A DNA stretch of 64,000 nt from an uncultured Actinomycetes bacterium (GCA_963784845.1 CAWASN010000007.1:4022-68021); one strand, 5' to 3'; shown: positions 4,184 to 63,399, numbered from the stretch's first letter. Notes: generated by a model from the letters alone, not told the origin. Made by a program: numbers and translations.

Positions 4184-5414
4184 TTACGCGGCGGGGCGCT
4201 TCACCGCCTTGAGCAGCGCGGCGTTCGGCTTCTCGGGAAGATCGGTGAGCGGCTGAGCGAGTCTCCTCGACCGTGGGGCCGTACTGCGCCGCGAGCGGCG
4301 CGAGCGCGTCGAGATCGAAGTCGAAGAGCTGGCCGCGTTGCCGGCCAGCACGTCGCGCAGCTCGACCTCGGGGACGTTGTTGAACACCGCTCGCAACGTC
4401 TCGCGGGTATAGGGCGGGGTGCCCTCGTCGTGCGGGTAGTCGCTGCCCCACATGAAGCGGCCCGGGCGCGAGCACCTTGCGGGCTTCCCAGTCCTCGGGG
4501 CCCGGGGAAGCTGGCGCCGACCCAGCAGTTCTGCTCGAAGTACTCGGTGGCCGAGCGCGGTAGCGCGTTCTCGGCGGTGTACTTGAGCTCGCCGATCTCG
4601 CCCTTGCGCACGTTGGCGATGATTCCGTCGAGCTGCTCAGCATCGGCGGGACCGCCGACAGCCGCGCTCTCGGTCATGACGAACTTGAGGCGGGGAAAGC
4701 GCTCGAACACGCCCGAGAGGAGCATGTGCACGAAAGGCCGCGATGCCGTAGAACCCGACCTCGCTGATCATGATCATCGGGACCGATGCGAACTTGCCGT
4801 AGTTCGGCGAGCCGGTGCCGCCGTGCAGCTGCACCGGGATCTCGAGGTCCTGCAGAACGGCCCACAGACGGTCGTAGGTCAGGGTCGTAGAGCGGCTTCA
4901 CCCACGTGACGTCGGGCGCGACCGTCGGCAGCAGGACGCCGCCGCGGAGGCCGTGCTCCTTGATCCAGGTGACGTCTTCGATCGCGTCGTCGATGTCGTT
5001 CAGGAAGAACTGACCGACGCCGGCGCGCTGCGCGGGCTTGCGCGCGCAGAAGTCGACGAGCCAGCGGTTGTGCGCGTGGATGCCGGCGCGCCGGTGCTCG
5101 TACTCGTCGGGCTTGGGCGGCGCCGCGAACAGCACGAACCCCGGATAGAAGGGTGGGACCGTGTTGGGGAAGATCACCTCACCCACCACCCCGTCGGCGA
5201 GCTGGTCGGCGTCTCGCCGGTCGTCGTCCCAGTTGCGGACGCGCAGGTCGGTGTCGCGCAAGTCCTTCCACGGGTTCTTGTACTTGCCCCGCCACGCATC
5301 GAAGTCGTCACGGAACTTCGGGTCGAGGTACTCGCGGTAGGTCTCGTGGTTCGCGCCCGCATGGCAGTCCGACGAGATGAGCGTGTAACGGGGGGCAACC
5401 GAATCGGTAGTCAT
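4184..5414 (-). CDS. Amidohydrolase_2 (ACMSD-like metal-dependent hydrolase), at least 3 frameshifts
   Basis: Fragments in ORFs 4674..5612, 4637..4834, 4201..4731 and 4184..4453(-) join into one protein. Recognisable segments are MTTDSVAPRYTLISSDCHAG..., ...MHMLLSGVFERFPRLKFVMTE... and ...MWGSDYPHDEGT. Confidence 0.75.
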
Positions 5415-5426
5415 GGTCCAACTATA

Positions 5427-5443
5427 AGCAGAATCTCGTTCTA
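5427..5443. promoter_or_regulatory. AGCAGAATCTCGTTCTA operator-like element
   Basis: AT-rich element in the 40-nt spacer between the amidohydrolase (-) and TetR (+) starts. It contains AGAAT-CTC-GTTCT, and a near-identical copy sits at 63317-63332. Confidence 0.4.
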
Positions 5444-5454
5444 TAATCAAGGGC

Positions 5455-6066
5455 ATGACCGCCGTACTGCCGAACCCCGCCTCGCTCCCCCGCGGGCAAC
5501 AGGAACGCCGGCAGCGCATCATCAAGGCCGCGATCACCCTGCTCGAGACCGGGGAGTACGACGCGATCCAGATGCGCGACGTCGCCGAACGGGCCGGCGT
5601 GGCGCTGGCCACGATCTACCGCTACTTCACCTCGAAGGAGCACCTCTACGCCGCCGCGATCGCTCGAATGGGCGTCGGGCTACCCCACCGCCGGACGAGC
5701 CGGGGCCGTCTCGGGTGCCGACGACGAGACCCGGCTGCGGGCGCTCATGCGCCGGGCCGTTCGCGCCTTCGAACGCTACCCGCAGATGATGCGAGCCGAG
5801 ATCGTGCTCGAGAGCTCGAACGACACGAACGCGCGCGCGCTGTGGGACGAGTTCGCCGCGCAGAACACCGCGACGCTCACCACGGCGATGTCGTCGACCG
5901 ATCCCGAGACGGCGGCCGCCATCGTCGACGTCGCCAACGCAGTCATGGTGACCCGGCTGCGGTCATGGGCGCTCGGCCGGTGCACCATCCGCGACGTCGA
6001 CAAGTCAGTCCAACGCGCGCGCTCGACCTGCTCTTCGGAGCCCCGAATCCGCGTCCGAGATCGTGA
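5455..6066 (+). CDS. TetR family transcriptional regulator (two compensating frameshifts)
   Basis: HTH region RIIKAAITLLETGEYDAIQMRDVAERAGVALATIYRYFTSKEHLY. The middle part reads in the 5747.. frame (RRAVRAFERYPQMMRAEIVLESS...), and the reading returns to the first frame for LDLLFGAP. Confidence 0.8.
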   Translation: MTAVLPNPASLPRGQQERRQRIIKAAITLLETGEYDAIQMRDVAERAGVALATIYRYFTSKEHLYAAAIARMGVGLPHRRTSRGRLGCRRRDPAAGAHAPGRSRLRTLPADDASRDRARELERHERARAVGRVRRAEHRDAHHGDVVDRSRDGGRHRRRRQRSHGDPAAVMGARPVHHPRRRQVSPTRALDLLFGAPNPRPRS

Positions 6067-6085
6067 AGTGTCGGAGCGGCGTGCG

Positions 6086-7563
6086 TCAGGGTTTCTGATG
6101 CTTCGTCGGCTTCGAGCGTCGATCGCCGGTCGGCCGTCGTTTCTTCGCTTTGGTCGGGCTGTTCCGGGCGGCCGCCTTGAGGAGCTCGTTGTGGGCGTCC
6201 TCGACGGCGTGGGCCATGTCGCGGAGACGGGGGACGAGCTCGCGGCACGCGATGAACCCCCAGTCGATCCGATCGAGGTAGCTGAGGACCGTGATGTTCA
6301 GTCCGGCGCCTTCGATGGGCGGTCCGAGGGGCAGCATGGACACGACGCGGGCTCCGCCGAGGTAGAGGGGAAACGGAGGCCCGGGGACGTTGGAGATCAC
6401 GAGGTTGATGGGGGCGGTGCCGCGGTGCGCGAGCCCGCCGAGCAGCCGACTTGCGAGGCCGAACACGAGCGGACCCGCGAGCTCGCCGAGCTCCATGATG
6501 GTGCGCGCGCCGAGCGCGCGGTGTTCTTCCTTCGCCCCGTGCGTCGTGTCGCGGATGTACGCGAGTCGTGCCTCGACGTCGTCGAGGTGCGTGGGGAGGG
6601 ACACGAACATGGCCGAGACCTTGTTGGCGCTGTCGATGTCGGCTGTCTGTTCGTTTCGGACCGAGACCGGGCACGCCGCGAGGAGCGGCCGGTCCGGCAG
6701 AACGTCGAGCTGTTGGAGGTAACTGCGGATGCGCGCCCGTCGCGGTCGCGAGGACGACGTCGTTCACCGTGACTCCGAACGCGTTCTTGATCGACTTCAC
6801 CTCGTCGAGCGAGACCGACGCGAACGCGACCCTGCGGTGGGAGGTCAACGGTGCGTTCCACGGCGTGTGCGGGAGTGTCGAAGGGAGTCCCGCCCGATGG
6901 CAGGCTCGCGTCGCGCCGCACCCGAAGGATGCCGGCCAAACCGCGCAGCAGGTCCGGCACGGCCAACACCGCCGCGATCGGCGCCGGGCGACGCAACCGC
7001 GAGAGGAGCGCATGTCCGACCAGTTCCAGATCTGACGGTTTGTGTTCGGGCTTCCATTCGTTTGCGTGCGCCCGCGCGGCGGGGTCGGGCTCGAGATCCA
7101 AGATGCTGGTGACCAGGCTCGAACCCGTCACCCCATCGATCGTCGCATGGTGCATTCGCGCCACGACTACGACCGCGTCGTGCTCGACCCCCTCGATGAC
7201 CCAGAACTCCCACAGCGGTCGCGAGCGATCGAGGGCGCGGCCCGCGATATCGCCGACCAGATCGGCGACTTGGTCGATGCTCCCCGGTGTTGGCACCGCG
7301 ATCCGGCGAATGTGGTAGTCGAAGTCGAAATGCGGGTCGTCGAACCACACCGGTCGGTGCAGATCGAACGGAACGAACGCGAGCCGGCGGCGGAACTCGG
7401 GCAGCAGCGGAAGCCGCGACGCGAGATGCGCCTTGATCTTCTCGAATGAGTAGCCGCCGGGGACGGTCGAGGGATCCAAGACCATCACGGCATGGACGTG
7501 CATGTGCGAGGTCGGTGTCTCCAGGTACAGGAACGCCGTATCCATCCCGCTCAACCGGTGCAT
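6086..7563 (-). CDS. Wax ester synthase/diacylglycerol acyltransferase (WS/DGAT), at least 2 frameshifts
   Basis: MHRLSGMDTAFLYLETPTSHMHV and the HHATIDGVTG active-site motif lie in ORF 6397..7620(-). The middle lies in 5943..7013(-). The C-terminus NLVISNVPGPPFPLYLGGARV lies in 6086..6610(-). Confidence 0.85.
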
Positions 7564-7849
7564 CGACAACCCTCGACCGTCGTGCTCGACTTGCACCAGT
7601 CCACCACGATCGGTGTTCATCGACCAGCTCGTTCCCAGATCTGCACACCTGTGCCTACGAGGGTTCCAGGCGAACGCGGCCTTCGGGATCGGCGCCGTTC
7701 TCGTTCAGTGTGTAGAAGCGAGGTTGGAGTCGCCTCGGTTGCGCTCTCGGGCAACGACAGTGCCGGCTCGCCTTTCGAGTGGTAGGCGATGCCGACGGAC
7801 GACGCCGACCGGCATGCCGCGATTCGGCGGCATGGATGCGGGTTCGGGT

Positions 7850-9325
7850 TCAATCGACCGGCTCGAACCATCGGATCAGTGGCCACACCCGACGACGAAG
7901 GATGTCCGGCTCGTCGCCGCAAACCAGACGCAGTCGAAGGCGAGATCCGCCCGCGGGCCGAGCGCCGTGGTTCAGCGCCGATCGACCACGCCACGCGAGT
8001 TCCGCCGTATGCACGATGCCTGCACGAGCGTCGGCGGCCGCGACCTCGACGAATTGTGATACCCGCTCGTGGTGGTTGTACCGGAAGGTGTCGCACCGGT
8101 TCTCGTGCTGGATCATGTCCATGCCGTGGTGCGCGCAACCGCCCATGCACACGGGCAGCGCGATGCACTCCTTGCACTCGGGGTCGGAGAACGGGTCGTA
8201 TTTCAGCCAACGCTGCATGCGTCCGTTCGTGTTGCGGTAGTCGGAGATGTGCCCGATCACCTCGTTCTGGTTGCCGACCGAGTCCCAGCATTTGTAGAGC
8301 TCGCCCTCACTTCCGACGACGAGCTCGTTGGCGCGGACCGCCGTGCAGGGCGCCCCCGAACGTTGCGGGACCGTCGGCGCACCGAAGCCGTACTTCAAGG
8401 TGAGCGCCGTGAACTCGGTCTCGGCCGCGGCGAAGGTGCTCGTCGTGAAGCAGGCGGTCTTGTACGACGACGACGGCGCCAGGTTTCCGTCGTTCACGCC
8501 GACGATCTGACCGGGGTAGACAGCCAAGCGGCCGGCCAAGCCCTCGGCGGACAGGATCTCGAGCAGTTCCTCGGTGTGGGCGATGTTCTCGGTGTCGACG
8601 TTCATGCGGATCGAGATGTTGAAGTAGTCGACGGCGTGGCGCAGGTTCTCGACGATCTGCCAGAAGGTGCCCTTGCCGTTGGCGAGCGGACGCATCCGGT
8701 CGTGCACCTCGGGCGGCCCGTCGAGACACACTTGGATTCCTACGACCTTGCGATCGCGGAGTTGCTCGCACGTCTCTTCGTCGAGCAGGTAGCCGTTCGT
8801 GGTCATCGTGGCCTGATACGCGACCTCGTGGCGGTCGCACCGCTCGATGAACGCGTCGGACAGAGCGAGCAGCGGGCGTTTGCCGACGAGCGGCTCACCT
8901 CCGAACCACATCACGCCCAGGCTGGCGATCTGCGGTAGCTGGTCGTCGAGTACCTCCAACAACGCGGTCTGGACCTCCACGCTCATGATCGAGGGATGCT
9001 TGGCCTCGAAGCAGTAGGGGCAGTCGAAGTTGCAGCCGAGGCTCGTCAGGATCGTCAAGCCGAAATGCGACATGTCGTAGCGCGTGAGCCGGTAGAGGCT
9101 CTCCAGCGCTCCGACTTCGTCGAACTCGTCGGAGACGAGCATCCGACCCTTCGCCAACTCGGCCAAGAGCGAGGGTCGGACCGCCGGCTGCGGATCGCCG
9201 GCGAGGAACTCCCGCAGGCCGTCGAAGTCGGACACGCCCACGCGCAACAGCGCGCCGCTGCTGCCGTTGTAGACGAAGTGCGCGCCATCGCGGTCGACCC
9301 ACACGTTGTAGCGGGATTCCTTCAT
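7850..9325 (-). CDS. Radical SAM / SPASM-domain peptide maturase (putative RiPP-modifying enzyme)
   Basis: ATG at 9325 (MKESRYNVWVDRDG...) overlaps the corrected stop of the upstream precursor as ATGA. CNFDCPYC (Cx3Cx2C) sits at residues ~98-105. The C-terminus carries C-x13-G-x4-C ... CKECIALPVCMGGC ... C, the 7-Cys SPASM pattern. The last ~70 aa are Arg-rich and may be frame-affected. Confidence 0.9.
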   Translation of the reverse strand: MKESRYNVWVDRDGAHFVYNGSSGALLRVGVSDFDGLREFLAGDPQPAVRPSLLAELAKGRMLVSDEFDEVGALESLYRLTRYDMSHFGLTILTSLGCNFDCPYCFEAKHPSIMSVEVQTALLEVLDDQLPQIASLGVMWFGGEPLVGKRPLLALSDAFIERCDRHEVAYQATMTTNGYLLDEETCEQLRDRKVVGIQVCLDGPPEVHDRMRPLANGKGTFWQIVENLRHAVDYFNISIRMNVDTENIAHTEELLEILSAEGLAGRLAVYPGQIVGVNDGNLAPSSSYKTACFTTSTFAAAETEFTALTLKYGFGAPTVPQRSGAPCTAVRANELVVGSEGELYKCWDSVGNQNEVIGHISDYRNTNGRMQRWLKYDPFSDPECKECIALPVCMGGCAHHGMDMIQHENRCDTFRYNHHERVSQFVEVAAADARAGIVHTAELAWRGRSALNHGARPAGGSRLRLRLVCGDEPDILRRRVWPLIRWFEPVD

Positions 9326-9607
9326 GCGATGTTCGTCACGGAGCAGATGTCCTTCTTGAAGCATGGCATCCATACCTGCGGTTGGCATACGCCTTTCGGA
9401 TTGCAGGTGCCGAACCCGGGCGGCTTGCACTGCGCAGGGCACCCATGCCGGAAGCCCCCCGACTTCCGGCTCGGTCTCGAGCGCGTGGACCAAACCCTCG
9501 AGTGCCTCGCGGATCTCGGGCGTCAGCTCCGCGTCCGCGCCAACCGCGATCTGAATCTCGACACTAGGTTCCACGACCCAGCCGCTGTCGTCGGATTGAT
9601 CGCTCAT
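9322..9607 (-). CDS. RiPP precursor peptide A3 (6-Cys core); frame broken in a C6 run at 9455-9460
   Basis: GGGAGGTGCG precedes the ATG at 9607. The leader is MSDQSDDSGWVVEPSVEIQIAVGADAELTPEIREALEGLVHALETEPEV. Removing one base of the homopolymer gives GGFRHGCPAQCKPPGFGTCNPKGVCQPQVWMPCFKKDICSVTNIA and a stop. The six-frame track fuses this leader to the rSAM ORF 7850..9607. Confidence 0.7.
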
Positions 9608-9637
9608 CGCACCTCCCGTGATGCTTTTCGGTCTGCT

Positions 9638-9940
9638 CTAGAGAGCCATGAATGCCCTCGGACAGGGCTTGATCACGCAATCGATGATGGTCTTGGCCTC
9701 GCAGGGGATCCAGCTCTGGGGGTCACAGGTCGTTCGTCTCGGACAGCGGGCGCGGAACCCCTCGACCTCTTCCTGAGCGTCGTCGCCGGATCGCGCCGCT
9801 TCCATCGCTCGCACGAGCGCGTCGAGGGCATCACGCACTTCTGGTGTGAGTTGGTTCGTATCGGAAACGTTGATGCTGATCCGCGACGTGTCGGCACTCG
9901 GCGGTTCGACAACCCAGCCCGAACCCTCGTCGGTCGTCAT
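9638..9940 (-). CDS. RiPP precursor peptide A2 (100 aa, 5-Cys core)
   Basis: The ATG at 9940 overlaps the A1 stop (ATGA). The sequence is MTTDEGSGWVVEPPSADTSRISINVSDTNQLTPEVRDALDALVRAMEAARSGDDAQEEVEGFRARCPRRTTCDPQSWIPCEAKTIIDCVIKPCPRAFMAL. Confidence 0.8.
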   Translation of the reverse strand: MTTDEGSGWVVEPPSADTSRISINVSDTNQLTPEVRDALDALVRAMEAARSGDDAQEEVEGFRARCPRRTTCDPQSWIPCEAKTIIDCVIKPCPRAFMAL

Positions 9941-10248
9941 CCCTGCCCCAAGATGTCGTAGGTCGGACAGGGCACGACGCGGCAGTCGATGATCGACTTC
10001 GCGAAACAATTCCGAATACTGAGCGGCGAGCACGCCGTTTCCTTCGGGCAACTGAACCCCGCGGCCCGAAATCCCTCGACGTCTTGCTGTTCGGAACTCG
10101 GATATCGCTCGAGCGCTCGCACGAGCGCTTCCACCGCGGCACGCGTCTCCGGGGTCAGGTCTGCGTTCGTGACGTCGATCGAGATCTGCGCGGCGTCGTC
10201 GCCGGGAGGCTCGATCACCCAGGCCGAGCCGTCGTTCTCGTCAGTCAT
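9937..10248 (-). CDS. RiPP precursor peptide A1 (103 aa, 5-Cys core)
   Basis: A strong SD, GGGAGGAGGAACCC, directly precedes the ATG at 10248. The sequence is MTDENDGSAWVIEPPGDDAAQISIDVTNADLTPETRAAVEALVRALERYPSSEQQDVEGFRAAGFSCPKETACSPLSIRNCFAKSIIDCRVVPCPTYDILGQG. Confidence 0.8.
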   Translation of the reverse strand: MTDENDGSAWVIEPPGDDAAQISIDVTNADLTPETRAAVEALVRALERYPSSEQQDVEGFRAAGFSCPKETACSPLSIRNCFAKSIIDCRVVPCPTYDILGQG

Positions 10249-10578
10249 GGGTTCCTCCTCCCGATCACTGGTTGTTTGACGAGGGCCAGCGCTCGCGGTT
10301 ACATACCCTGGCCGCGCCGGCCCCGTCGAATCCGTCCGCTCCAGGGGACACCGAGCCACCCGGTCGTCAGCGCGCACCGGCGACAGGGGCGATCTGGCGG
10401 TTCGATTACCGTCCCGTTGCCTCCTCCGGCGCGGGAGAGATTTCGACGTTTCCGCAGTTCGGAGCCATGATTCGGATGTCGCACCGCTCGCCATGCCTGA
10501 TCGGCCTTGCCGAGAGTCGGCGATCGCGGCACCTTCACCGCGGGATTTGGTGAGGCGGTGCTGGGATGATCTTGGTGC

Positions 10579-11695
10579 ATGTTCCTTGCCCTGGGAGAGA
10601 TTCGCAAAGCTCGGTGGCGTTTTGTGCTGCTCACGGGTGCTGTCGGCTTGTTGGTCTTCCTGATCCTGTTCGTGCAGGCGCTGACGGCGGCGCTGATCGG
10701 TCAGTTCATCGGTGCGATCGATCACCAGTCGGCCGATGTGCTCGTGTATTCGCAGCAGGCGCGCAAGAACCTCGAAGGGTCGGTGGTGCCTCCCGGGACC
10801 GTTGCCCAGGTGGCTCGCGTGCGGGGGTGGCGGCGGCGGGTGCACTCGGCGAGGGGACGTTCAGCGTGCGCGCGAACGGCAAACTGCGCGACGCGGTACT
10901 TGTCGGTTACACGCCGGGCAACCCGGGCGCCCCGACCACCCTCACCGAGGGTCGCCTGCCCCAGTCGGGTTTCGAAGCGGTCGCGAGCTCGCGGAACGCG
11001 TCCGAGGGATTCGCGATCGGCGACCGCGTCCAGCTCGTACGCGGTGGCCGGGTTGTCACGATTGTCGGTCAGGCTCGTGACATCAACTACTCGGTGTTGC
11101 CGACGATGTTCACGACGTTCGATACCTATGTCGGGGCGCGCCGCGACGCCAACCCGAGCGCGACGAGCGTCTGGCCGTCGGCGGTAGCGGTCGCGGTCGC
11201 GCCGGGATCGAGCTCGGCCGGGGTCCGCGACGCCATCAACCGTTCTGTTCCCGGCGTCGAGGCGTTGACGCGTTCCCAGGCAGTGAAGGAATCGCCGGGA
11301 GTTGCGAGCGTGAGCGAATCTCTCGGCACGGTCGTGTTCCTGTGCTTCTTCGTTGTTGTGGTGGTCGCGGGCCTTTTCTTCTTGATCCTGACGGTCCAAA
11401 AGGCGGGCGCCCTGACCTTGTTGCGCGCGATTGGGATCGGTGGTGGCGCGCTGCGCGGTCGTTGCTCGTCCAGGTCGTGCTCGTGGTACTCGGCGGAGTC
11501 GTCGTGGGTGCCGCACTCACCATCGCGGCGCTCGGTGCGAGCAACGCGAGTCTCGGCGCGAGTCTGGGTGCCGCTCAACTGTTCCAGACCGGTGCCATCG
11601 TCCTCGTCCTTGCGACCGTCGCGTCGCTCGGCGCGATCCGGCGGGTTCTGCGCATCGACCCGATCCAAGCGACGATTCCCGGCGGCGTCGAATGA
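10579..11695 (+). CDS. ABC transporter permease, FtsX/MacB family (2 frameshifts)
   Basis: The N-terminal TM region MFLALGEIRKARWRFVLLTGAVGLLVFLILF is followed by an extracytoplasmic domain in the 10566.. frame. The FtsX TM bundle reads in the 11342.. frame. The stop overlaps the next start (ATGA at 11692). Confidence 0.75.
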
Positions 11696-12792
11696 TCCTC
11701 GCGTTGCGTGAGCTTCGTCGGCAGCCGCGCCGATTCATCACCGCCACCGCGGTTCTCACACTTCTTGTCGTCCTGTTGCTCTTTCTCGGCGGCCTGCTCG
11801 ATGGCCTCTACCTCGGGTCCACGGGCGCGCTCCGGGCACAACGTGCCGACGTGCTCGTGTATTCAGCCGACGCGAACGACTCCATCATCCGGTCCCGCAT
11901 CGATCCACCGACTCGCGCCCGCGTTATCCACGTGCCCGGCGTGACCGCCGTGAACGGTCTCGGCATTACCCTCACCGGCACGACCGTGCCCGGACAGCGC
12001 ACGCTCGCCGACACGGCTGTCATCGGCTACGAGATCGCGGCGAACGACGTGCCGGCACCGCTCCCCGAGGGCGAGGCGTGGGCCGACCGCCGCCTCGAGA
12101 CCTTCGGGGTGCGCGTCGGCCAAACCCTGGGCGTCGGTCCCCAGCAGGTGCCCGTGCTCGTCAAGGGCTGGGTGCACGACACGAACTACCTCCTGCAGGG
12201 CGCGCTCTGGGTAAGTCCACCGACGTGGCGGAAGGTTCAAGCGACGAGTCGACCGGACGCCGCCGTTCCGAATGACACGTTCGAAGTGCTCGTCGTTCGC
12301 GGGACGCCACCCGCGGCGCAACTCGCACGCGACATCGACGCGGCCACGAGGGGAACGACCAAGACGTTGACCAAGAACGAAGCAGTGCTCTCGTCGCCTG
12401 GCACCCGCGAACAGAAATCGACCTTCGCCGGGATCATCGACGTGACGTTCCTCGTCGTCGGTCTGGTCGTCGCGCTCTTCTTCGTCCTGCTGACCATCGA
12501 ACGCACAGCCCTCTACGGCGTGCTGAAAGCGGTCGGCGCGAAGACCTCGCGGCTGCTCGCGGGGCTGATCACCCAGGCCCTCGTTATCGGGACCGTCGCG
12601 TTCGTCGTCGGCGAGATCGTCACGCTCGGGCTCGCCGCCATCCTCCCCGCCAAGATCCCTTTGATCCTGCAATCGTCGCGAGCGACCTCTACCTACCTCG
12701 GGGTCGTCATCGCCGCCGCGCTCGGCGGCTGTATCTCGTTGCGTCGCATCGTCCGTGTCGACCCGATGACCGCCATCGGCGCGTCCAACTGA
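11692..12792 (+). CDS. ABC transporter permease, FtsX/MacB family
   Basis: Intact 366 aa from the ATG at 11692. MILALRELRRQPRRFITATAVLTLLVVLLLF is followed by a large loop and then the C-terminal FtsX helices. It is a paralogue of the preceding gene. Confidence 0.85.
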   Translation: MILALRELRRQPRRFITATAVLTLLVVLLLFLGGLLDGLYLGSTGALRAQRADVLVYSADANDSIIRSRIDPPTRARVIHVPGVTAVNGLGITLTGTTVPGQRTLADTAVIGYEIAANDVPAPLPEGEAWADRRLETFGVRVGQTLGVGPQQVPVLVKGWVHDTNYLLQGALWVSPPTWRKVQATSRPDAAVPNDTFEVLVVRGTPPAAQLARDIDAATRGTTKTLTKNEAVLSSPGTREQKSTFAGIIDVTFLVVGLVVALFFVLLTIERTALYGVLKAVGAKTSRLLAGLITQALVIGTVAFVVGEIVTLGLAAILPAKIPLILQSSRATSTYLGVVIAAALGGCISLRRIVRVDPMTAIGASN

Positions 12793-12807
12793 CCCTCAGG
12801 AGCAGCA

Positions 12808-13488
12808 ATGAGCGCGCTCACGCTCGCAAACGTCCGCAAGGTCTACCGATCCGGAGGCGAGGACGTCATCGCGCTCGATCACGCGACCCTGACCATCGGC
12901 GACGACGAGATGGTCGCACTTGTCGGACCATCCGGCTCCGGGAAGACCACCCTCATCTCGATCGCCGGCGGTCTTCTCACCCCGACCGCGGGCACGGTCG
13001 TCGTCGGGACTGAAGACATCACCGGCTACGACCCCAAGCAGCTCACCCGATTTCGCCGCGAACGCGTCGGATTCGTCTTCCAGACCGTCAACCTCGTGCC
13101 CTTCTTGACCGCACGCGAGAACCTGCTCGTCATGTCCGAGCTCACCGGCGTCGGTCGCGCCGGGCGCAAGCGGGCACGGGCCCGCGCCGATCAACTGCTC
13201 GAGGAGCTCGGCCTCACACATCGCGCCCACGGCGTTCCCGCCGAGCTCTCCGGCGGCGAACGCCAACGGGTCGCGATTGGCCGAGCACTCATGAACGAAC
13301 CGAAACTCGTCCTCTTCGACGAGCCGACCTCCGCACTCGACACCAAGCTCGGCGAACACGTGATGGAGCTCATCCGGACCGAGGTCAAAGGACGCGGGAT
13401 CGCGGCGGTGATCGTGACCCACGACACGCGTATGACGCACTACTGCGACCGCGTCGTCACGATCCTCGACGGCCAGCTCGCAGCCTGA
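12808..13488 (+). CDS. ABC transporter ATP-binding protein (MacB/LolD-like)
   Basis: Walker A GPSGSGKTT, signature LSGGERQRVAIGRAL, Walker B LVLFDEPTSALD, and H-loop VTHD. Confidence 0.92.
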   Translation: MSALTLANVRKVYRSGGEDVIALDHATLTIGDDEMVALVGPSGSGKTTLISIAGGLLTPTAGTVVVGTEDITGYDPKQLTRFRRERVGFVFQTVNLVPFLTARENLLVMSELTGVGRAGRKRARARADQLLEELGLTHRAHGVPAELSGGERQRVAIGRALMNEPKLVLFDEPTSALDTKLGEHVMELIRTEVKGRGIAAVIVTHDTRMTHYCDRVVTILDGQLAA

Positions 13489-13531
13489 CCTGAATCGCGC
13501 CCGGCAGAGAGTTACGAGAGTCGTTCCGATG

Positions 13532-14915
13532 TCAGAACTGCGGGAGCCAGCGGCTGGTGGCGCTCAGCAGCTCATCGGCCATCTGTTCGATGGTCGCGAG
13601 TCCGAGCGTGCCGGCGTGTGGGTCGAGCAGCATCGCGGCGTACACGAGGTCTCGGTCGCCGGTGAGTGCCGCTTCGACCGTCATCTCCTGCGTGGCCACG
13701 ATGCGATTCAACCATGCGGCAAGGAACGGTGGTGCGTGCACCGGCGCTCGGCCGTGCACGCCATTGCCGTCGACGACGCACATGCTCTCGGTCACCGCAT
13801 CGACTGGTAGGTCGCCGCACTGGCCGGTGTTCGGGACGTTCAGAGGGAACACTCGGGAGCGGCCGGTGACGAGAGAGTCGATCACGGGCGCCGCCATCTC
13901 CAGCGACCGGTGTCGCGGCGGCTCGGTGTCGCCGAGCCGCTTTTCGAGATCGGCCGCGTAGCGCCCATCGTGGCGCTCGCGCTCGGCGATCGTCGTGTAG
14001 TGGACGTTCCAGCGCGCGCCCCAATCGGCGTCCTGCGCAAGCATCGCCGGAAAGGCTTCGAGCGTGTGACGGTTCCCGGGCGCGACGAACACGCCGAAAC
14101 GACGGAACAGCTCGAAACCGGCGGCGTACTCTTCGACGAAGTACCGCTTCGTTGCGTGCCGAGGTATGTGTTCCTCGCCGAAGCTGCCCGGGCGTTCGTG
14201 TTCGTCGTCGCCGAGGTCGAAGCCGAGATCGAAATCGAGGTCGACCTTGCCGTCGACCACCTCACGGAGGAACGCCATGCCGTCGCGCCCGCCGCCGAGA
14301 TCGATGGCAGTGACGATCGGCACGTGATTCACGCCCGTGACCGACAGGTCGATCGCATCCCAGTCCGCGTCGGCGAGCAGCGTGAGCACGCCGCGGAAGT
14401 TCGTGACCTCATGGCACAGGCCGACAGTTCTGATGGACGTCGCCTTGGCCACCGATCGGCACAGGGCAGTCATCGGATTCGTGAGGTTCAACAGCCACGC
14501 GTCGGCGCAGACGTCCTCCATGTCACGCGCGATCCCGACGAGCACGGGGATGTTTCGCAGAGCACGATTGATGCCCCCGGGACCCATCGTGTCGCCACCC
14601 GGCTGACGGATGCCGTATCGCCACGGGATGTCGAGGTCGAGCGCCATGGACTCGAGGCCGCCGGTCGTGATGTTCACGAGCACGAAGTCCGCTCCCCGCA
14701 ACGCCTTCCGCCGATCGATGGTGGCGTGCACCGCGAACTCTGCGCCGGTGAGATCGCTCACGTGCTCCACAACCGGCGTAGTACCGCGCGAGGCGGGAAG
14801 CGTCGATGTCCTGCAGCACGACTTCGGCACCGCGCAGCGACGGTGTGAGCGCGAGGTCGGTCGTCAGCGTCGGTACCCATTGGAAGCTCCCGCCCCCGAC
14901 AATCACGATCTTCAC
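13532..14915 (-). CDS. Glycoside hydrolase family 4, second copy (one frameshift near 14790)
   Basis: The N-terminus MKIVIVGGGSFQWVP is in ORF 14523..14915(-). The rest is in ORF 13532..14830(-) with NLTNPMTAL and GLCHEV. A doubled T in GGTTGTGG breaks ...ARYYAG/VEHVSDLTG. Confidence 0.8.
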
Positions 14916-15089: not shown

Positions 15090-16238
15090 CTACGACCGGC
15101 CAAGGACGATCGGGCTTGCGGTCGGGAATGCGTAGCTATAGCCACCGACGACGAAACAGAATCGGCGGCTCGCACACGACGCGCTGTGCAGCAGTCCGGC
15201 GACGCCGATCTGGTGGCCGATACCCACAAGGTTTCCGCCTGCCGATGACCAGACCGAACCGTTCCACACGACAATGGCCGAGTGCTCCGCGCTGGGCGTC
15301 GGTCCGTGCAGGTCAGTGATGGCGATACAGAAGAATCGGCTCGTGCACGAGACGTCACCGAAGGTCCCGGCGAATGGGAATGCCGGTTGAGGCGTCGGAA
15401 GCGTCGTCCACGACGACCCGTTCCAACGTTCGATCCCGCCGCCGAACCCTCCACCCGACGCCATGCAGAAAGAAGCGCTCACGCATGACACGCTGCTTCC
15501 GGCGCTGCCGGGGCTTGTCGTCACGGCCCAGGTGCTCCCTTCCCACCGCTCCGCCAGGATGTGATGCCCAGACGAGGCGTCGACGTAGTCGCCGAGCGCG
15601 AGGCAGAAGCGGCGACGGGTGCACGACACGCTCGAGAGACTTGACGTGGTGCCCACTGCGGGGCTCGTAGCAATCGACCACGCCTTGCCGTTCCATGACT
15701 CGATGAGCGCCCGCGGGTTGCCGCCATACGCCGTGGAGCTGGACCCGACCGCCACGCAGGACCATCGATTCGGACACGAGACGCTGTTGAGTTGGTTGTT
15801 CGAGAAGGGCGTATTGGGTGTGGGGGGTCGCGTCCAGGTCTTGCCGTTCCATATCTCCGCGAGTGTCGAGACGGCAAACGTCGGGCTCGGGTCGTAAGGG
15901 TTGTAAGGCTCGTTGTAGCGCCCGCCGACGACGGCACAGAACCTGCGGCTCGGACACGACACCCCGCTGAGCACGGCATTCGCGACACCGAGCTGGGGAG
16001 CGAGCGACCAGCTCCGCCCGTTCCAGACCTCGGTCATGGTCGTTTCGGGCGGCGCGTACCCGACGTAGTCGCCCGCGGCGACACAGAACTTCGCGCTCGC
16101 GCACGACACCGCGTTGAACGTGCCTTCGTAGACGGTGTCCAGGGGATGCGGTGTTGTCGTCCACGCGAGGGACGACGACGCGCCTGCGGTCGCCTGCCCA
16201 ACTGCTGCAACCATGCCGAAAACGGTGAACAAGATCAT
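15090..16238 (-). CDS. Secreted repeat protein (about 7 repeats of VSC-x4-5-C ... WNG-x2-W; beta-propeller-like)
   Basis: 382-aa ORF with a hydrophobic N-terminus ending AVGQATA. It has seven tandem units of ~45-55 aa. A better signal peptide, MMVVQHHLGSRIRA.., with GGGGAGGAG upstream, starts at 16284 in another frame, so the 5' end may be frame-broken. Confidence 0.7.
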   Translation of the reverse strand: MILFTVFGMVAAVGQATAGASSSLAWTTTPHPLDTVYEGTFNAVSCASAKFCVAAGDYVGYAPPETTMTEVWNGRSWSLAPQLGVANAVLSGVSCPSRRFCAVVGGRYNEPYNPYDPSPTFAVSTLAEIWNGKTWTRPPTPNTPFSNNQLNSVSCPNRWSCVAVGSSSTAYGGNPRALIESWNGKAWSIATSPAVGTTSSLSSVSCTRRRFCLALGDYVDASSGHHILAERWEGSTWAVTTSPGSAGSSVSCVSASFCMASGGGFGGGIERWNGSSWTTLPTPQPAFPFAGTFGDVSCTSRFFCIAITDLHGPTPSAEHSAIVVWNGSVWSSAGGNLVGIGHQIGVAGLLHSASCASRRFCFVVGGYSYAFPTASPIVLGRS

Positions 16239-51812: not shown

Positions 51813-52657
51813 ACACCGACGCGTACCGCTCGATCGAGGTGCTGCCGATCGCGGGCTCGCTCGGCGCCGAGATCACCGGGCGTCGATCTGGCGACCGATC
51901 TGGTCGACGAAACCGTGGCCGAGATCCGCCGGGCGTGGCTGGAGCACCTCGTCGTGTTCTTCCGCGACCAGTTCCTCGCTCCCGGCGGAGTTCCTCGCGT
52001 TCGCCCGCCGGATCGGGGAACCCGTGGAGTACCCGTTCGTGCGAGGCATCGACGGGTTCCCCGACATCATCGCCGTCTCGAAGCTGCCGCACGAGACCGT
52101 GAACTTCGGCGGCATATGGCACAGCGACACCGTGTACCTCGAATGCCCGCCGATGGCAACGATGCTGTTGGCTCGCGAGGTGCCGCGCTACGGGGGAGAC
52201 ACCATGTGGTCGAACATGTATGCGGCGTACGACGCGCTCTCTCCCGGCATGCAACGTGTTCTCGAGAACCTGCGATCGGTGAACAGCTCGGCGCTCGCCG
52301 ACGTGTCGAAGACGAGAGAGGACCGTATTCGTGACTCCGGTAACACCACCGAGCGCGAGTACCTCTCGGAGCATCCCGTCGTGCGCACCCATCCCGAGAC
52401 CGGTCGCAAGGCTCTCTACGTCAACGTCGCGGACACGCACCGTTTCGTCGACATGACCGAGGACGAGAGCCGACCGCTGCTGGGATATCTCTTCGAGCAC
52501 TCGATACGGCCGGAGTTCACGTGCCGATTCCGGTGGCGCGTCGGCTCGGTCGCGCTCGTGGGACAACCGGTGCACGATGCACAACCCGGTGAACGACTAC
52601 CACGGCTCCACGCGCACGATGCACCGCATCACCCTCGCCGGAGACGTCCCGTCGTGA
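51809..52657 (+). CDS. TauD/TfdA family Fe(II)/2-oxoglutarate-dependent dioxygenase (frameshifts)
   Basis: The ATG at 51809 overlaps the upstream stop (ATGA). Segments are GAEITGVDL.., WHSDTVYLECPPMATMLLAREVPRYGGDTMWSN, and the tail [28 protein letters not shown] after frame switches. Confidence 0.8.
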
Positions 52658-54256
52658 CGGGTCGAGGGGTGCGCAGCGAGGTGACCTGGCCGACGATTCC
52701 CGCCATGATCCGGGACGCGGCGCGCCGCCGCGGCGGTGCCGAGGCGGTCGTCGACGCCGATCGGCGCGTCGACTTCGCAACGCTGCGGCGCCGGGTCGAC
52801 GACGCCGCGCGCGGCGCTGCTCGCGTCGGGTGTCGATCGCGGCGACCGCGTCGCGGTCTGGGCGCCGAACTCACTCGAGTGGATCGTCGCCGCGCTCGGC
52901 GTGACGACCGCGGGCGGCGGTGCTCGTCCCGATCAACACGCGATTTCGTGGTGCCGAAGCTTCCTTCGTCCTCGCTCGCAGCCGCGCGCGGGCACTGTTC
53001 ACGGTGCGCGGGTTCCTCGACACGGACTACCCGGCGCTGCTCGCAAGCTCCGGGGTGGCGCTCCCCGCGCTCGAGCAGACCATTTTGCTCTCGGGTGACG
53101 ACGACGAGGTGTCCGTCGGTTGGGACGAATTCGTCGCGCGCGGGCGCTCGGTGCCGGACGCGGAGCTGGACGCGCGCGTCGCGTCCGATAGGCCCCGACG
53201 ATCCCAGCGATGTGGTCTTCACCTCGGGAACGACGGGGAATCCCAAGGGCGTCGTCATGACACACGGCCAGACGTTGCGCGCCTACCTCGACTGGTGCGA
53301 CTGGGCCGACCTCCGCCCGGGCGACCGCTACCTCATCGCGAACCCCTTCTTCCACATCTTCGGCTACAAGGCCGGGTGCCTCGCGTGCCTGATGCGGGGC
53401 GCGACGATCTTGCCGCTCGCGGTGTTCGACGCGGGTGTGGTGCTCGAGCTCGTCGAACGCGAGCGGATCTCGGTCCTCCCCGGCCCACCGACGATCTACC
53501 ACTCGTTGCTCGACCACCCCGAGCGCGCCGGCCGCGACATCACGAGCCTGCGCGTCGCGGTGACGGGTGCGGCCGACATTCCCGTAGAGCTCATCCGGCG
53601 CGTGCGCCAGGAGCTGCCGTTCGAGCGCATCCTCACCGGGTACGGCCTCACCGAAGCCGGCACCGTCACCGGCAGCCGGCCCGACGACGACTTCGAGCAC
53701 ATCGCGACCACCGTCGGCGTCGCCTGGCCCGGGTTCGAAGTTCGGACGGTCACCGAAGCGGGTGTCGACACCGGTCCGGGGGAAACCGGCGAGGTGTTGG
53801 TGCGGGGTGAGACGGTGACGCTGCGGATATCTCGACGATCCGGAAGCCACGGCGGTCGCGATCGACGGCGACGGATGGCTGCACACGGGTGACCTCGGAA
53901 CTCTCGACCCCGAGGGGTACCTGCGCATCGTGGGGCGCATCAAGGACATGTTCATCGTCGGCGGGTTCAACGCCTATCCGGCCGAGATCGAGAACCTGCT
54001 CCTGCGCCATCCGCGCGTTCGCGCAGGCCGCGGTGATCGGCGTGCCCGACTCCCGGCTCGGCGAGGTCGGCAAGGCCTTCGTCGTCCTGGAGCCCGGTGG
54101 GCCGATCGAGCCGTCGGAGATCATCGACTGGGCGCGCGCGCGAGATGGCGAACTTCAAGGTGCCCCGCTTCGGTGGAGTTCCTCGCCGCGCTGCCCGTCA
54201 ACGCGACGGGCAAGGTCGTCAAGGACGAGCTTCGGGCGCGCCCGGTGTCGTCGTGA
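52654..54256 (+). CDS. Acyl-CoA synthetase / AMP-binding enzyme (several frameshifts)
   Basis: The GTG at 52654 forms a GTGA overlap. Motifs are [30 protein letters not shown], and [13 protein letters not shown]...[12 protein letters not shown]. Confidence 0.8.
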
Positions 54257-55103
54257 CCGCAGAGTACGAGACGATCGCCTACGACGGGACCGACGACGGC
54301 GGGATCGCCCGCATCACGTTGCAGCGCCCCCGGCGGCTCAACGCCTTCACCAACCGGATGCAGCACGAGCTCGGCGATGCCTTCGACCGAGTCGATGCGG
54401 ATCTCGACGTGCGCGCGGTGGTGGTGACCGGGTCGGGACGAGGGTTCTGCGCCGGCGCCGATCTGGGCTCGGGCGAGCGGACGTTTGCCGGGGGGAAGCG
54501 GTCGGGACGCGATCCCGGGCGGCGTGGTCGCGTTGCGGATCTTCGATTGCACCAAGCCGGTGATCGCGGCGGTGAACGGTCCCGCCGTCGGCGTCGGGGC
54601 ATCGATGACGCTCCCCATGGACGCCCGGTTCGCGGCGCCGGACGCGACGTTCGGCTTCGTGTTCACCCGGCTCGGGATCGTCCCCGAGGCCTGCTCGTCA
54701 TGGTTTCTGCCGCGGCTCGTGGGCATTCCGACCGCGCTCGAATGGTTGATGTCGGGGCGGACCGTCTCTGCCGCCGACGCGCTGGCCGCCGGTCTGGTGC
54801 ACGGCATTGCCGACGATGTCGTGTCGGCCGCGACGGAGTACGCGCGCAGCCTGGTGAGCGGGACCGCGCCGGTGTCGGTCACGCTCGACGCGCCAGCTCG
54901 TCTGGCGGATGACGACGGTCGCCGGCCCGGCGGACGCGCACCGGGTCGACTCCGCGCTGTTGTTGTCCGCGGCCGCGACGCCGGACGCCCGCGAGGGCGT
55001 CGCGGCGTTTCGCGAGCGCCGCGAACCCGACTTCTCGATGCGTGTTCCGGACGATCTCCCCGGCGCGTATCCGTGGTGGGAACCCGAGGAATGGAGTACC
55101 TGA
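54253..55103 (+). CDS. Enoyl-CoA hydratase/isomerase (crotonase) family protein (frameshifts)
   Basis: The GTG at 54253 forms a GTGA overlap. Segments are [45 protein letters not shown], and the tail [14 protein letters not shown]. Confidence 0.8.
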
Positions 55104-55528
55104 TGGCGCGAGTACCCGTCGCGGAGGGCATCTTCACCGGTCCCGAGCGATGCCCCGCAGTTGATCGGGGGCCGGTGTGCCGAGTGCGGGATCGTCACCT
55201 TTCCCGCGCAGGACTCGTGCCCGCGCTGCGCGTCGACCGAGATGGCCGAACACCTGCTGGCGCGGCGGGGCCGGCTCTGGGCGTGGACGACCCAGGAATT
55301 CCCACCGCCGTCGCCGCCGTACTCGGGACCGACGGGCAGCGACTTCGTTCCCTTCGGTGTCGGCTACGTCGAACTCGCCGACGAGGTGAAGGTCGAGGCG
55401 CGCCTCACCGAAGTCCGACCCCGACGTGCTGCACCTCGGCATGGAGATGGAGCTGGTGCTCGGTCCCGTTCCGCACCGACGACGACGGCAACGAGGTCGT
55501 GACCTTCGCCTTCCGACCGGTGGGCTGA
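55103..55528 (+). CDS. Zn-ribbon/OB-fold protein (DUF35 family), frameshifts
   Basis: The ATG at 55103 shares one base with the upstream TGA. RCAECGIVTFPAQDSCPRCAS forms a C4 ribbon in the 55161 frame. The tail is DDDGNEVVTFAFRPVG. Confidence 0.75.
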   Translation: MARVPVAEGIFTGPERCPAVDRGPVCRVRDRHLSRAGLVPALRVDRDGRTPAGAAGPALGVDDPGIPTAVAAVLGTDGQRLRSLRCRLRRTRRRGEGRGAPHRSPTPTCCTSAWRWSWCSVPFRTDDDGNEVVTFAFRPVG

Positions 55529-55560
55529 GCCATCGCGCCGAACCAGCGCGAGAGAGCGAC

Positions 55561-56716: not shown

Positions 56717-56782
56717 GGATTCCCGTGTGGCGACCGGGCGTGGCCGGGACGGTGTCCGCGAGCATTGCATTCTCAAATCTGT

Positions 56783-56795
56783 AGAACTAGGTTCT
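56783..56795. promoter_or_regulatory. Perfect palindrome AGAAC-TAG-GTTCT upstream of the acyl-CoA dehydrogenase pair
   Basis: Read directly in an AT-richer spacer (gcattgcattctcaaatctgtAGAACTAGGTTCTcc), ending 6 nt before the GTG at 56802. Confidence 0.5.
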
Positions 56796-56801
56796 CCGCA
56801 A

Positions 56802-58989: not shown

Positions 58990-59018
58990 GCCCGCCCGCC
59001 CGCACAAGGAGCCCCCGC

Positions 59019-59803: not shown

Positions 59804-59816
59804 GCGGCCCGGCAGC

Positions 59817-61110: not shown

Positions 61111-61123
61111 GGCAGCTCCTTCT

Positions 61124-63271: not shown

Positions 63272-63316
63272 TCCTCGTCCCCTTCGTTCGAGAATCCCGC
63301 ATGCTCTTGGCGAGAG

Positions 63317-63332: not shown

Positions 63333-63399
63333 GCGTAATGTCCTATCGAGACCAGGCACGTGCGGGCTGGCCGGTGCCGCATCCGGGGAGCGTCGAGCC

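What the first reader, a model, noticed from the sequence alone, without database searches (positions are those of the whole stretch)
7850..13488. Candidate new RiPP system: three tandem Cys-rich precursors, a radical SAM/SPASM maturase and a divergent MacB-type ABC exporter
Seen in sequence:
- A minus-strand operon runs from 10248 to 7850. It holds three small ORFs of 103, 100 and about 94 aa.
- These have very strong SD sites (GGGAGGAGGAACCC-ATG and GGGAGGTGCG-ATG) and 4-nt ATGA start/stop overlaps (A1/A2, and A3/enzyme).
- All three share an acidic ~60-aa N-terminal region and end in 5-6 cysteines.
- The next gene is a 491-aa enzyme with CNFDCPYC (Cx3Cx2C) and a C-terminal C-x13-G-x4-C ... 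C-x2-C-x5-C-x3-C ... C pattern.
- Two FtsX/MacB permeases and an ATPase are transcribed divergently from a shared 330-nt spacer.

Established knowledge: radical SAM enzymes with SPASM auxiliary clusters encoded next to short Cys-rich precursors install thioether crosslinks. Examples are sactipeptides (AlbA), ranthipeptides (CteB, PapB) and QhpD. MacB-type ABC pumps commonly export or confer immunity to such peptides.

Inference:
- This is a RiPP biosynthetic locus.
- The leader does not resemble the SCIFF, NHLP, Nif11, PqqA, MftA or lanthipeptide leaders I know.
- No leader protease, LanB/C, YcaO or methyltransferase is present.
- It may therefore represent an undescribed precursor family in a high-GC actinobacterial background.
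Basis: partly seen in the sequence, partly recalled or inferred. Interest (0 to 1): 0.93.

Follow-up and report, generated by a model that had tools for sequence, protein, structure and literature searches.

The report
Cys-rich peptide precursors with radical-SAM maturase
This is a real but stripped-down copy of a widespread, uncurated peptide-modification system (three Cys-rich precursors plus one radical SAM/SPASM enzyme); the neighbouring ABC pump is not a conserved part of it, and several genes here carry frame errors.

Summary
The core of the finding holds. Window 10303-7972 (minus strand) carries an ECF-sigma-type promoter, three paralogous precursors and a radical SAM/SPASM enzyme. Each precursor has an acidic, Cys-free leader ending in E-V-x-G-F, followed by a basic core with 5-6 Cys.

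The same leader family sits directly upstream of homologous enzymes in 44 of 78 genomes from several phyla. It matches no Pfam or NCBIfam model. The enzyme scores below the cut-off of every curated maturase family (best TIGR04463, 279 vs 525 bits). It folds like the thioether synthase CteB.

Three details are wrong:
- A3 is frameshifted at a G6 run, so its leader reads into the enzyme ORF.
- The enzyme's last ~40 residues are a frameshift artefact; the family is ~450 aa.
- The first FtsX permease is broken twice.

Frame breaks occur across the window, and purifying selection is evident, so I read them as assembly errors.

The MacB-type pump is absent from all 78 related loci. The closest relative (90% nt identity) shares only window 10320-7956. 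Relatives instead carry an ECF sigma factor, an S8 protease, an FHA-ABC exporter, a GAF protein and a kinase. None of these is in this window.

Verdict: a new variant of a known kind (ranthipeptide/sactipeptide-like RiPP), chemistry untested, moderate interest.

The parts
10278..10303 (-). ECF-sigma-type promoter motif TGTAACC-N15-CGTC, ending 29 nt upstream of the A1 start codon
   Evidence: It is the only match in the 64-kb window, with 0.00 expected by chance. The same motif occurs in 19 of 81 loci, nearly always just upstream of the first precursor. It lies inside the block shared with the closest relative. Function is inferred, not shown.
9937..10248 (-). Precursor A1, 103 aa: acidic Cys-free leader ending DVEGF, then a 5-Cys core
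   Evidence: Intact ORF with a strong SD. Precursor-family HMM E=2.5e-23. Against the L079 orthologue there are 12 synonymous and 10 non-synonymous codon changes, and all Cys are kept.
9638..9940 (-). Precursor A2, 100 aa: leader ending EVEGF, then a 5-Cys core (C-x5-C-x7-C-x7-C-x4-C-P)
   Evidence: Intact ORF with an ATGA overlap with A1. HMM E=1.1e-25. Orthologues in L001-L003 and L079 share the same Cys spacing.
9322..9607 (-). Precursor A3, disrupted: leader in frame 0 from 9607, a G6 run at 9460-9455, and the 6-Cys core in the +1 frame at 9453-9322. About 94 aa if one G is removed.
   Evidence: The relative L079 has an intact 94-aa A3 (…EVEGFRATCGAQCKPPGFGTCNPKGTCTPQVWMPCFKKDICSVTNFA). 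Orthologues are also present in L001-L003.
7972..9325 (-). Radical SAM/SPASM maturase, natively ~450 aa. It comprises an N-terminal beta3-alpha3 (RRE-like) domain (9325-9080), CX3CX2C (9034-9011) and the SPASM Cys motif (8347-8093). A 1-nt surplus near 7991 extends the written ORF to 7850 (491 aa).
   Evidence: PF04055 62.9 bits and TIGR04085 51.2 bits, both above cut-off. Invariant Cys in 27 homologues. AlphaFold pTM 0.79 with the tail disordered. Best fold match is CteB. Against L079 there are 55 synonymous and 17 non-synonymous codon changes. The native VDRR-stop lies out of frame.
7956..10320 (-). Extent of the block shared with the closest relative (90.5% nt identity): promoter, three precursors and the enzyme only
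   Evidence: blastn of L079 against the window gives a single hit, 10320-7956; the flanks are unrelated. No repeats or mobile-element signs were found at the edges.
10579..13488 (+). Neighbouring FtsX/FtsX/ATPase (MacB/DevCA-like) ABC system: FtsX-1 10579-11695 (two frame breaks), FtsX-2 11695-12792, ATPase 12808-13488. Adjacent, but not a conserved part of the system.
   Evidence: PF02687 and PF00005 hits, and DevA/MacB-like ATPase hits. No FtsX homologue in any of 78 related loci. The region lies outside the block shared with L079.

Best explanation
Window 10303-7972 is a minimal RiPP cassette.

How it most likely works:
- One promoter of the ECF-sigma type drives three paralogous precursor genes and a radical SAM/SPASM maturase.
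- Each precursor has a ~50-60-aa acidic, Cys-free leader with the conserved motifs W-(V/L)-x-E-P-P, (L/V)-(T/S)-P-E and A-L-x-x-L. The leader ends in E-V-x-G-F and is followed by a ~40-aa basic core with 5-6 Cys.
- Inferred: the enzyme's N-terminal beta3-alpha3 domain docks the leader.
- Inferred: the CX3CX2C cluster cleaves SAM to the 5'-deoxyadenosyl radical, which abstracts a hydrogen from a core residue. The core Cys thiols, handled at the SPASM auxiliary clusters, then form intramolecular thioether rings, as in CteB, PapB and QhpD.
- In related genomes the E-V-x-G-F junction is probably cut by a co-encoded S8 protease. The product is probably exported by an FHA-domain ABC exporter, all under a dedicated ECF sigma factor.
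- This window holds only the promoter, precursors and enzyme. It therefore probably depends on such factors encoded elsewhere in the genome.
- The frame breaks in A3 and in the enzyme tail are most likely assembly errors.

What is shown: gene content, conservation, co-localisation, fold class and the promoter motif.
What is inferred: the chemistry, the cleavage site, the regulation and supply of accessory factors in trans.
For: - The precursor HMM finds same-strand small ORFs directly next to the homologous enzyme in 44 of 78 genome loci, across Actinomycetota, Thermomicrobiales, Alphaproteobacteria, Acidobacteriota and Nitrospirota. There are usually 2-5 copies per locus.
- An exhaustive profile search finds 229 precursor clusters at 50% identity.
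- The leader is Cys-free in 58 of 63 precursors, and all core Cys follow E-V-x-G-(F/H/Y).
- The enzyme passes the Radical_SAM and SPASM models, and its cluster Cys are invariant.
- Its nearest curated families are all RiPP maturases: TIGR04463, Clo7bot, CefB, geopeptide, PapB and SCIFF.
- The best solved relative by sequence and by fold is the thioether synthase CteB.
- Purifying selection against the 90%-identical relative: enzyme 55 synonymous to 17 non-synonymous changes; A1 changes mostly at third codon positions.
- The promoter motif is unique in the window and recurs upstream of precursors in 19 of 81 loci. All 16 of the motif-bearing loci that were checked have E-V-x-G-F precursors.
- An S8 protease is present only where precursors carry E-V-x-G-F: 13 of 28 loci against 0 of 14, Fisher p=0.0016.
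- Two genomes hold both a full cluster and a bare cassette: L005 with L014, and L018 with L012.
Against: - There is no chemical evidence; thioether formation is by analogy only.
- The enzyme is only ~21% identical to CteB and fails every curated family cut-off.
- No RRE/PqqD HMM hit was found. The leader-binding domain rests on predicted topology alone.
- In this window A3 and the enzyme's 3' end are out of frame.
- No sigma factor, protease or dedicated exporter lies within the 64 kb.
- The co-occurrence statistics ignore phylogenetic relatedness.
- 34 of the 78 loci gave no HMM-detectable precursor. A few have leader-like ORFs by eye.
Confidence: 0.7

Rival explanations
1. One reading: a self-contained biosynthetic cluster in which the divergent MacB-type FtsX/FtsX/ATPase pump is the dedicated exporter or immunity system for the modified peptides.
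For: The pump is adjacent and divergently transcribed across a 330-nt spacer. MacB/DevCA-type pumps do serve some peptide systems (established knowledge). The ATPase scores on bacteriocin and darobactin exporter models among many others.
Against: No FtsX homologue was found in any of 78 related loci. The closest relative shares only 10320-7956 and has an ECF sigma gene where the pump sits here. Relatives use a different exporter, an FHA-ABC_membrane-ABC_tran protein. The first permease gene is broken in the window.
Confidence: 0.12
2. A decaying remnant: a displaced copy of the precursor/enzyme block that has lost its sigma factor, protease and exporter and is turning into pseudogenes.
For: A3 is frameshifted and the enzyme has lost its native stop. 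Accessory genes are absent from the 64-kb window. The block sits in an unrelated lipid and sugar metabolism context.
Against: Frame breaks are common across the window, including in unrelated genes: WS/DGAT, the amidohydrolase, FtsX-1 and the 52-64 kb region. The 90%-identical relative has different indels at other places, and at the same enzyme-tail site in the opposite direction. Both observations fit long-read assembly error. Purifying selection is strong. Bare cassettes coexist with full clusters in other genomes.
Confidence: 0.12
3. Same cassette, different chemistry: the enzyme installs something other than Cys thioethers (for example C-C or C-O crosslinks or epimerisation). The Cys would then form disulfides or bind metal.
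For: SPASM maturases with similar folds catalyse many reactions; SuiB, ChlB, TigE and EpeE are among the fold matches. The enzyme belongs to no characterised family. Some distant family members have only 2-3 Cys and W/G/Y-rich cores.
Against: Cys is the one constant of the cores across the family. The nearest curated families and the nearest solved structure are Cys-thioether or Cys-rich peptide maturases.
Confidence: 0.25
4. A QhpC-like case: the small proteins are crosslinked subunits of an enzyme complex (carrying a protein-derived cofactor) rather than free peptides.
For: The full clusters of relatives follow the same logic as the qhp system: an rSAM/SPASM enzyme, a small Cys-rich protein with a leader, a subtilisin-like protease and an ABC exporter (PMC7876137).
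Against: QhpD scores 92 bits against a cut-off of 453. No dehydrogenase subunit genes are nearby. Multiple hypervariable paralogous cores per locus are typical of secreted RiPPs, not of an enzyme subunit.
Confidence: 0.04

Closest known systems
CteB / SCIFF (thermocellin) ranthipeptide system
   Same: An rSAM enzyme with an N-terminal leader-binding-type domain and a SPASM domain with two auxiliary clusters, paired with a short Cys-rich precursor. CteB is the best solved relative by sequence (5wgg, E=1.9e-20) and by fold (E~1e-16, TM ~0.6-0.67 over ~450 columns).
   Different: Only ~21% identity. The SCIFF maturase model scores 102 bits against a cut-off of 425. The precursors are ~100 aa with a long acidic leader, not ~45-aa SCIFF peptides, and they hit no SCIFF model. 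There are three to five precursors per locus.
NCBIfam TIGR04463 (rSAM_vs_C_rich) and TIGR04334 (Clo7bot) RiPP maturase families
   Same: These are the highest-scoring curated families, with end-to-end alignments of 279 and 269 bits. The Clo7bot name implies tandem multi-copy precursors (from memory, not tested).
   Different: Both scores are far below the curated cut-offs of 525 and 600. Six representatives of this clade, from cultured Actinomycetes, a Hyphomicrobium and a MAG, also score only 262-308 bits on TIGR04463. Both families are themselves chemically uncharacterised as far as I could find.
PapB / freyrasin and other characterised ranthipeptide synthases
   Same: The same enzyme class, with Cys-to-side-chain thioether logic as the plausible mechanism.
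   Different: PapB model scores 127 bits against a cut-off of 340. The cores lack the regular CxxxD-type repeats. The Cys spacing here is C-x5-C-x7-C-x7-C-x4-C for A1 and A2, and C-x3-C-x8-C-x5-C-x7-C-x5-C for A3.
QhpC/QhpD/QhpE/QhpF (quinohemoprotein amine dehydrogenase gamma-subunit maturation)
   Same: The full clusters of relatives combine an rSAM/SPASM enzyme, a leader-bearing small Cys-rich protein, a subtilisin-like S8 protease and an ABC exporter. This is the same processing logic as described in PMC7876137.
   Different: QhpD scores 92 bits against a cut-off of 453. There are no QhpA, QhpB or QhpG genes. The precursors are multiple and variable. Relatives add an ECF sigma factor, a GAF protein and a Kelch-domain kinase. 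This window has none of the accessory genes.

Membership tests
Radical SAM superfamily (PF04055) | CX3CX2C motif and a Pfam score above the gathering threshold | tested here: met
   CNFDCPYC at residues 98-105, invariant in 27 homologues. PF04055 scores 62.9 bits against 29.5.
SPASM-domain rSAM enzymes (TIGR04085) | C-terminal seven-Cys motif for two auxiliary [4Fe-4S] clusters, and a model score above cut-off | tested here: met
   TIGR04085 scores 51.2 bits against 27. C327, C346, C384, C387, C393, C397 and C411, plus C292, are invariant.
TIGR04463 radical SAM/SPASM RiPP maturase | Score at or above the curated cut-off of 525 bits | tested here: not met
   279 bits for the window enzyme. Six clade members score 262-308 bits.
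Clo7bot (TIGR04334), CefB (NF038107) and geopeptide (TIGR04280) maturases | Score at or above the curated cut-offs (600, 600 and 400) | tested here: not met
   269, 201 and 184 bits respectively.
SCIFF/ranthipeptide maturases (TIGR03974, PapB NF047865) | Maturase score above cut-off and a SCIFF-type or PapA-type precursor | tested here: not met
   102 bits against 425 and 127 bits against 340. The precursors hit no NCBIfam or Pfam model.
Ranthipeptide / sactipeptide RiPP classes (defined by chemistry) | Cys sulfur linked to a non-alpha or alpha carbon of an acceptor residue | not testable with these tools
   Needs MS/MS or NMR of the modified peptide. Only fold and family proximity are available.
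   80 bits against 349. No sulfatase was found in the surveyed neighbourhood.
QhpD / QHNDH maturation | Score above the TIGR03906 cut-off and qhpA/qhpB structural genes nearby | tested here: not met
   92 bits against 453. No such genes are in the window or in relatives.
RiPP precursor/maturase pair (generic) | A conserved leader plus a variable core, encoded next to the modifying enzyme across genomes | tested here: met
   44 of 78 loci. Leader motifs are conserved and cores are variable.
RRE (PqqD-like) leader-recognition domain | Winged-helix beta3-alpha3 domain that binds the leader | tested here: inconclusive
   The model shows three strands then three helices in residues 1-82 at pLDDT ~90, and a full-length alignment to CteB. 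There is no PqqD/RRE HMM hit, and binding was not tested.
MacB-type ABC exporter as part of this system | Co-occurrence with the precursor/maturase pair in related genomes | tested here: not met
   0 of 78 loci carry an FtsX homologue. The pump lies outside the block shared with the closest relative.

The most novel reading that the evidence does not exclude
The E-V-x-G-F leader family with its maturase clade is a distinct RiPP class of soil Actinomycetota and neighbouring phyla. The enzyme would install a crosslink pattern or acceptor chemistry not yet described. Production would be wired to an ECF sigma factor, a Kelch-domain Ser/Thr kinase and an FHA-gated ABC exporter. That wiring suggests a regulated signalling or defence peptide rather than a simple bacteriocin. 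Bare cassettes like this one would be satellite members of that regulon.
Probability: 0.25. Interest if true: 0.75.

Novelty: new variant of a known kind. Interest (0 to 1): 0.5.

Why it matters
If the inference holds, this is an entry point to a sizeable peptide natural-product family with no curated model and no description in the literature I could search. There are at least 229 precursor clusters at 50% identity, and over a thousand enzyme relatives in metagenomes. Most come from uncultured soil Actinomycetota, but cultured strains also carry it and can be tested: Nonomuraea jabiensis DSM 45507, Dactylosporangium sp. McL0621, Streptomyces spiralis JCM 3302, a Micromonospora, a Bradyrhizobium and a Hyphomicrobium.

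The work also yields three concrete, testable predictions:
- an ECF-type promoter, TGTAACC-N15-CGTC;
- a leader/core junction, E-V-x-G-F, tied to an S8 protease;
- bare cassettes served in trans by a full cluster.

It would not overturn anything. rSAM/SPASM enzymes next to Cys-rich peptides are a familiar theme. It also serves as a caution: adjacency alone (the MacB pump) was misleading, and raw ORFs from error-prone assemblies need frame checks.

Tried and rejected
- Pfam and NCBIfam scans of A1-A3 and of nine diverse family precursors gave no meaningful hits.
- The word-indexed protein search with A2 alone found only itself. With a 41-sequence alignment it found 22 hits, all named 'hypothetical protein' or unnamed.
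- Exact look-ups of the window's own contig failed. The cluster look-up only showed that it is a 2.03-Mb NCBI/ENA contig. I therefore could not search the rest of the genome for the sigma factor, protease and exporter.
- An Rfam scan of 7000-14000 found nothing.
- The sigma-70 promoter scan gave 0 sites, and terminator-like sites were at chance level.
- The repeat search at the block edges found no terminal repeats or mobile-element signs.
- A relaxed ECF motif search upstream of precursors in 22 further precursor-upstream regions found nothing, so the promoter is confined to the E-V-x-G-F subgroup.
- Literature searches found no description of this family. The terms tried were TIGR04463, OhkG/FlmE, ranthipeptide with Actinobacteria, Acidimicrobiia or Streptomyces, and rSAM with ECF sigma and subtilisin. 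Absence from the held library is not proof of absence.
- I considered the 585-aa ORF as a natural leader-enzyme fusion and rejected it. Family enzymes start at MKESRYN, and the 90%-identical relative has a separate intact A3.
- The GC3 frame scan is noisy, because the antisense frame mirrors the signal. I use it only qualitatively.

Full report
**What is in the sequence**

On the minus strand, A1 (10248-9937, 103 aa) and A2 (9940-9638, 100 aa) are intact. They are joined by an ATGA overlap, and A1 follows GGGAGGAGGAACCC.

A third paralogue starts at 9607 behind GGGAGGTGCG. After a run of six G (9460-9455), its Cys-rich core continues in the +1 frame (9453-9322). There it ends in an ATGA overlap with the enzyme start at 9325. 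As written, the A3 leader instead reads through into the enzyme as a 585-aa ORF.

The enzyme ORF from 9325 is 491 aa. However, 26 homologues are ~450 aa and end ...ELARxVDRR*. The window has one surplus base near 7991, and the native VDRR-TGA lies out of frame at 7986-7972. The extra tail models as disordered.

On the plus strand, the first FtsX permease (10579-11695) is split over three frames. The second permease (11695-12792) and the ATPase (12808-13488) are intact.

Leaders are acidic (13-14 D/E against 1-4 K/R) and Cys-free. Cores are basic with 5, 5 and 6 Cys.

**Are the frame breaks biology or error?**

- Neighbouring unrelated genes (WS/DGAT, an amidohydrolase) are also split. Coding-frame flips every few hundred bases occur elsewhere in the window.
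- The closest relative, L079 (90.5% nt identity), has an intact 94-aa A3. It carries its own single-base indels in A2 and in the enzyme.
- At the enzyme's 3' end, L079 carries an indel of the opposite sign at the same spot.
- Codon differences between the two show purifying selection: enzyme 55 synonymous to 17 non-synonymous; A1 changes mostly at third positions with all Cys kept.

I therefore read the breaks as long-read assembly errors. Only read-level data can settle this.

**The enzyme**

- It passes Radical_SAM (62.9 bits against 29.5) and the SPASM domain model (51.2 against 27).
- CNFDCPYC and eight C-terminal Cys are invariant across homologues.
- Every curated maturase family is missed by a wide margin:

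| Family | Score (bits) | Cut-off (bits) |
|---|---|---|
| TIGR04463 | 279 | 525 |
| Clo7bot | 269 | 600 |
| CefB | 201 | 600 |
| geopeptide | 184 | 400 |
| PapB | 127 | 340 |
| SCIFF | 102 | 425 |
| QhpD | 92 | 453 |
| anSME | 80 | 349 |

- Six further clade members, including four from cultured strains, score 262-308 bits on TIGR04463. The whole clade is therefore uncurated.
- The best solved relative is the thioether synthase CteB, by sequence (E=1.9e-20) and by fold (TM ~0.6-0.67).
- The AlphaFold model (pTM 0.79) has an N-terminal three-strand, three-helix domain of the leader-recognition type. No RRE HMM supports it.

**The precursors are a real, conserved family**

- A profile built from A1-A3 and iterated finds same-strand small ORFs immediately next to the homologous enzyme in 44 of 78 species-representative genomes.
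- These include Acidimicrobiia and other Actinomycetota, Thermomicrobiales, Alphaproteobacteria, Acidobacteriota and Nitrospirota, usually with 2-5 copies per locus.
- L001-L003 carry one-to-one orthologues of A1, A2 and A3 in the same order.
- The shared anatomy is W-(V/L)-x-E-P-P, then (L/V)-(T/S)-P-E...A-L-x-x-L. In the actinobacterial type this is followed by E-V-x-G-(F/H/Y) at residues ~50-58, with every Cys after that point.
- An exhaustive profile search of 1.84 billion representatives gives 229 clusters at E<=1e-3, almost all 80-125 aa.
- No Pfam or NCBIfam model matches. Sources name them 'hypothetical protein' or give no name.

**What belongs to the system**

The homology between the window and its closest relative covers only 10320-7956. 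That is the upstream ~70 nt, the three precursors and the enzyme.

In that relative and in L080/L081, the upstream neighbour is a divergent ECF sigma factor. It is preceded by an FHA-ABC_membrane-ABC_tran(-cNMP) exporter, a GAF protein, a Peptidase_S8 and an 80-aa protein. A Kelch-domain Ser/Thr kinase lies downstream. This set recurs in roughly 13-16 of the 78 loci. None of these genes is in the 64-kb window.

Conversely, no FtsX homologue occurs in any related locus. The MacB-type pump is therefore a neighbour, not a conserved component.

**Regulation and processing (inferred)**

- The motif TGTAACC-N15-CGTC lies at 10303-10278. It is the only match in the window, with 0.00 expected.
- The motif recurs in 19 of 81 loci, almost always just before the first precursor. 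In some loci it also lies in front of the exporter and sigma genes. This fits an ECF-sigma regulon.
- All 16 of the motif-bearing loci that were checked have E-V-x-G-F precursors.
- An S8 protease is found only with such precursors: 13 of 28 loci against 0 of 14, p=0.0016, uncorrected for phylogeny. E-V-x-G-F is therefore the likely processing site.
- The combination of an rSAM/SPASM enzyme, a small Cys-rich protein, a subtilisin-like protease and an ABC exporter parallels QhpD/C/E/F (PMC7876137).
- Two genomes carry both a full cluster and a bare cassette: L005 with L014, and L018 with L012. This window's cassette may likewise be served in trans.

**Mechanism and verdict**

The most likely mechanism has four steps:
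1. The enzyme docks on the precursor leader.
2. It cleaves SAM to the 5'-deoxyadenosyl radical.
3. The radical abstracts a hydrogen from a core residue.
4. Core Cys thiols form thioether rings at the SPASM clusters, giving a compact polycyclic peptide.

The chemistry is by analogy only. Other SPASM chemistries remain possible.

Literature searches found no description of this family. I could not run RODEO, antiSMASH or a RadicalSAM.org placement.

Overall this is a genuine, widespread, uncurated variant of the rSAM/SPASM Cys-rich RiPP theme. In this window it is present as a minimal cassette in an error-prone assembly. Interest is moderate.

Noticed in passing
window 15090-16238 (-): A 382-aa ORF with a signal-peptide-like N-terminus and about seven repeats of the form VSCxSxxFCxAVG...WNGxxW. 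It has no Pfam hit at E<1e-3.
   Followed up: no
window 4674-7620 and 52000-64000: Many genes are split across frames: WS/DGAT in three pieces, an amidohydrolase, and serial frame flips every 150-300 nt on one strand. This suggests an indel-rich long-read assembly.
   Followed up: partly
L035 14292-14317 and 16198-16223; L046, L068, L071 (extra sites): In full clusters the TGTAACC-N14-16-CGTC motif also lies in front of the FHA-ABC exporter, the 80-aa protein gene and the sigma gene. This suggests an autoregulated ECF regulon.
   Followed up: partly
L080 7936-8178; L046 3148-2744: Two small proteins resemble the precursor leader but have no Cys. The first is an 80-aa protein in the full clusters that contains ...DELAGF. 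The second is a 134-aa ORF that matches the precursor profile. Their roles are unknown.
   Followed up: no
L080 8196-8903 (-): The cluster's ECF sigma factor has a C-terminal Cys-containing extension (C-x22-C-x2-C). No separate anti-sigma gene was identified.
   Followed up: no
L019, L027, L028, L023, L021, L038 (upstream of the enzyme): A second precursor subtype occurs mainly in Alphaproteobacteria and some Actinomycetes. It lacks E-V-x-G-F and has W-L-I-S-P...L-T-P-E-V-L-E-L-L-A-K-F and a C-P-K-L-x-x-C...C-x6-C-G core. These loci lack the S8 protease and the ECF promoter motif.
   Followed up: partly
L001 (CAZLEC010000004.1): The locus most similar in gene order, with A1/A2/A3 orthologues and 76% enzyme identity, is labelled 'uncultured Burkholderiales'. 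All other close relatives are Actinomycetota, so this may be a binning or label error.
   Followed up: no
P0149 (2179 aa), P0165 (824 aa), P0224, P0275: Long repeat proteins matched the leader profile in many short stretches. P0165 looks like low-complexity repeat sequence, so these are probably spurious hits.
   Followed up: partly
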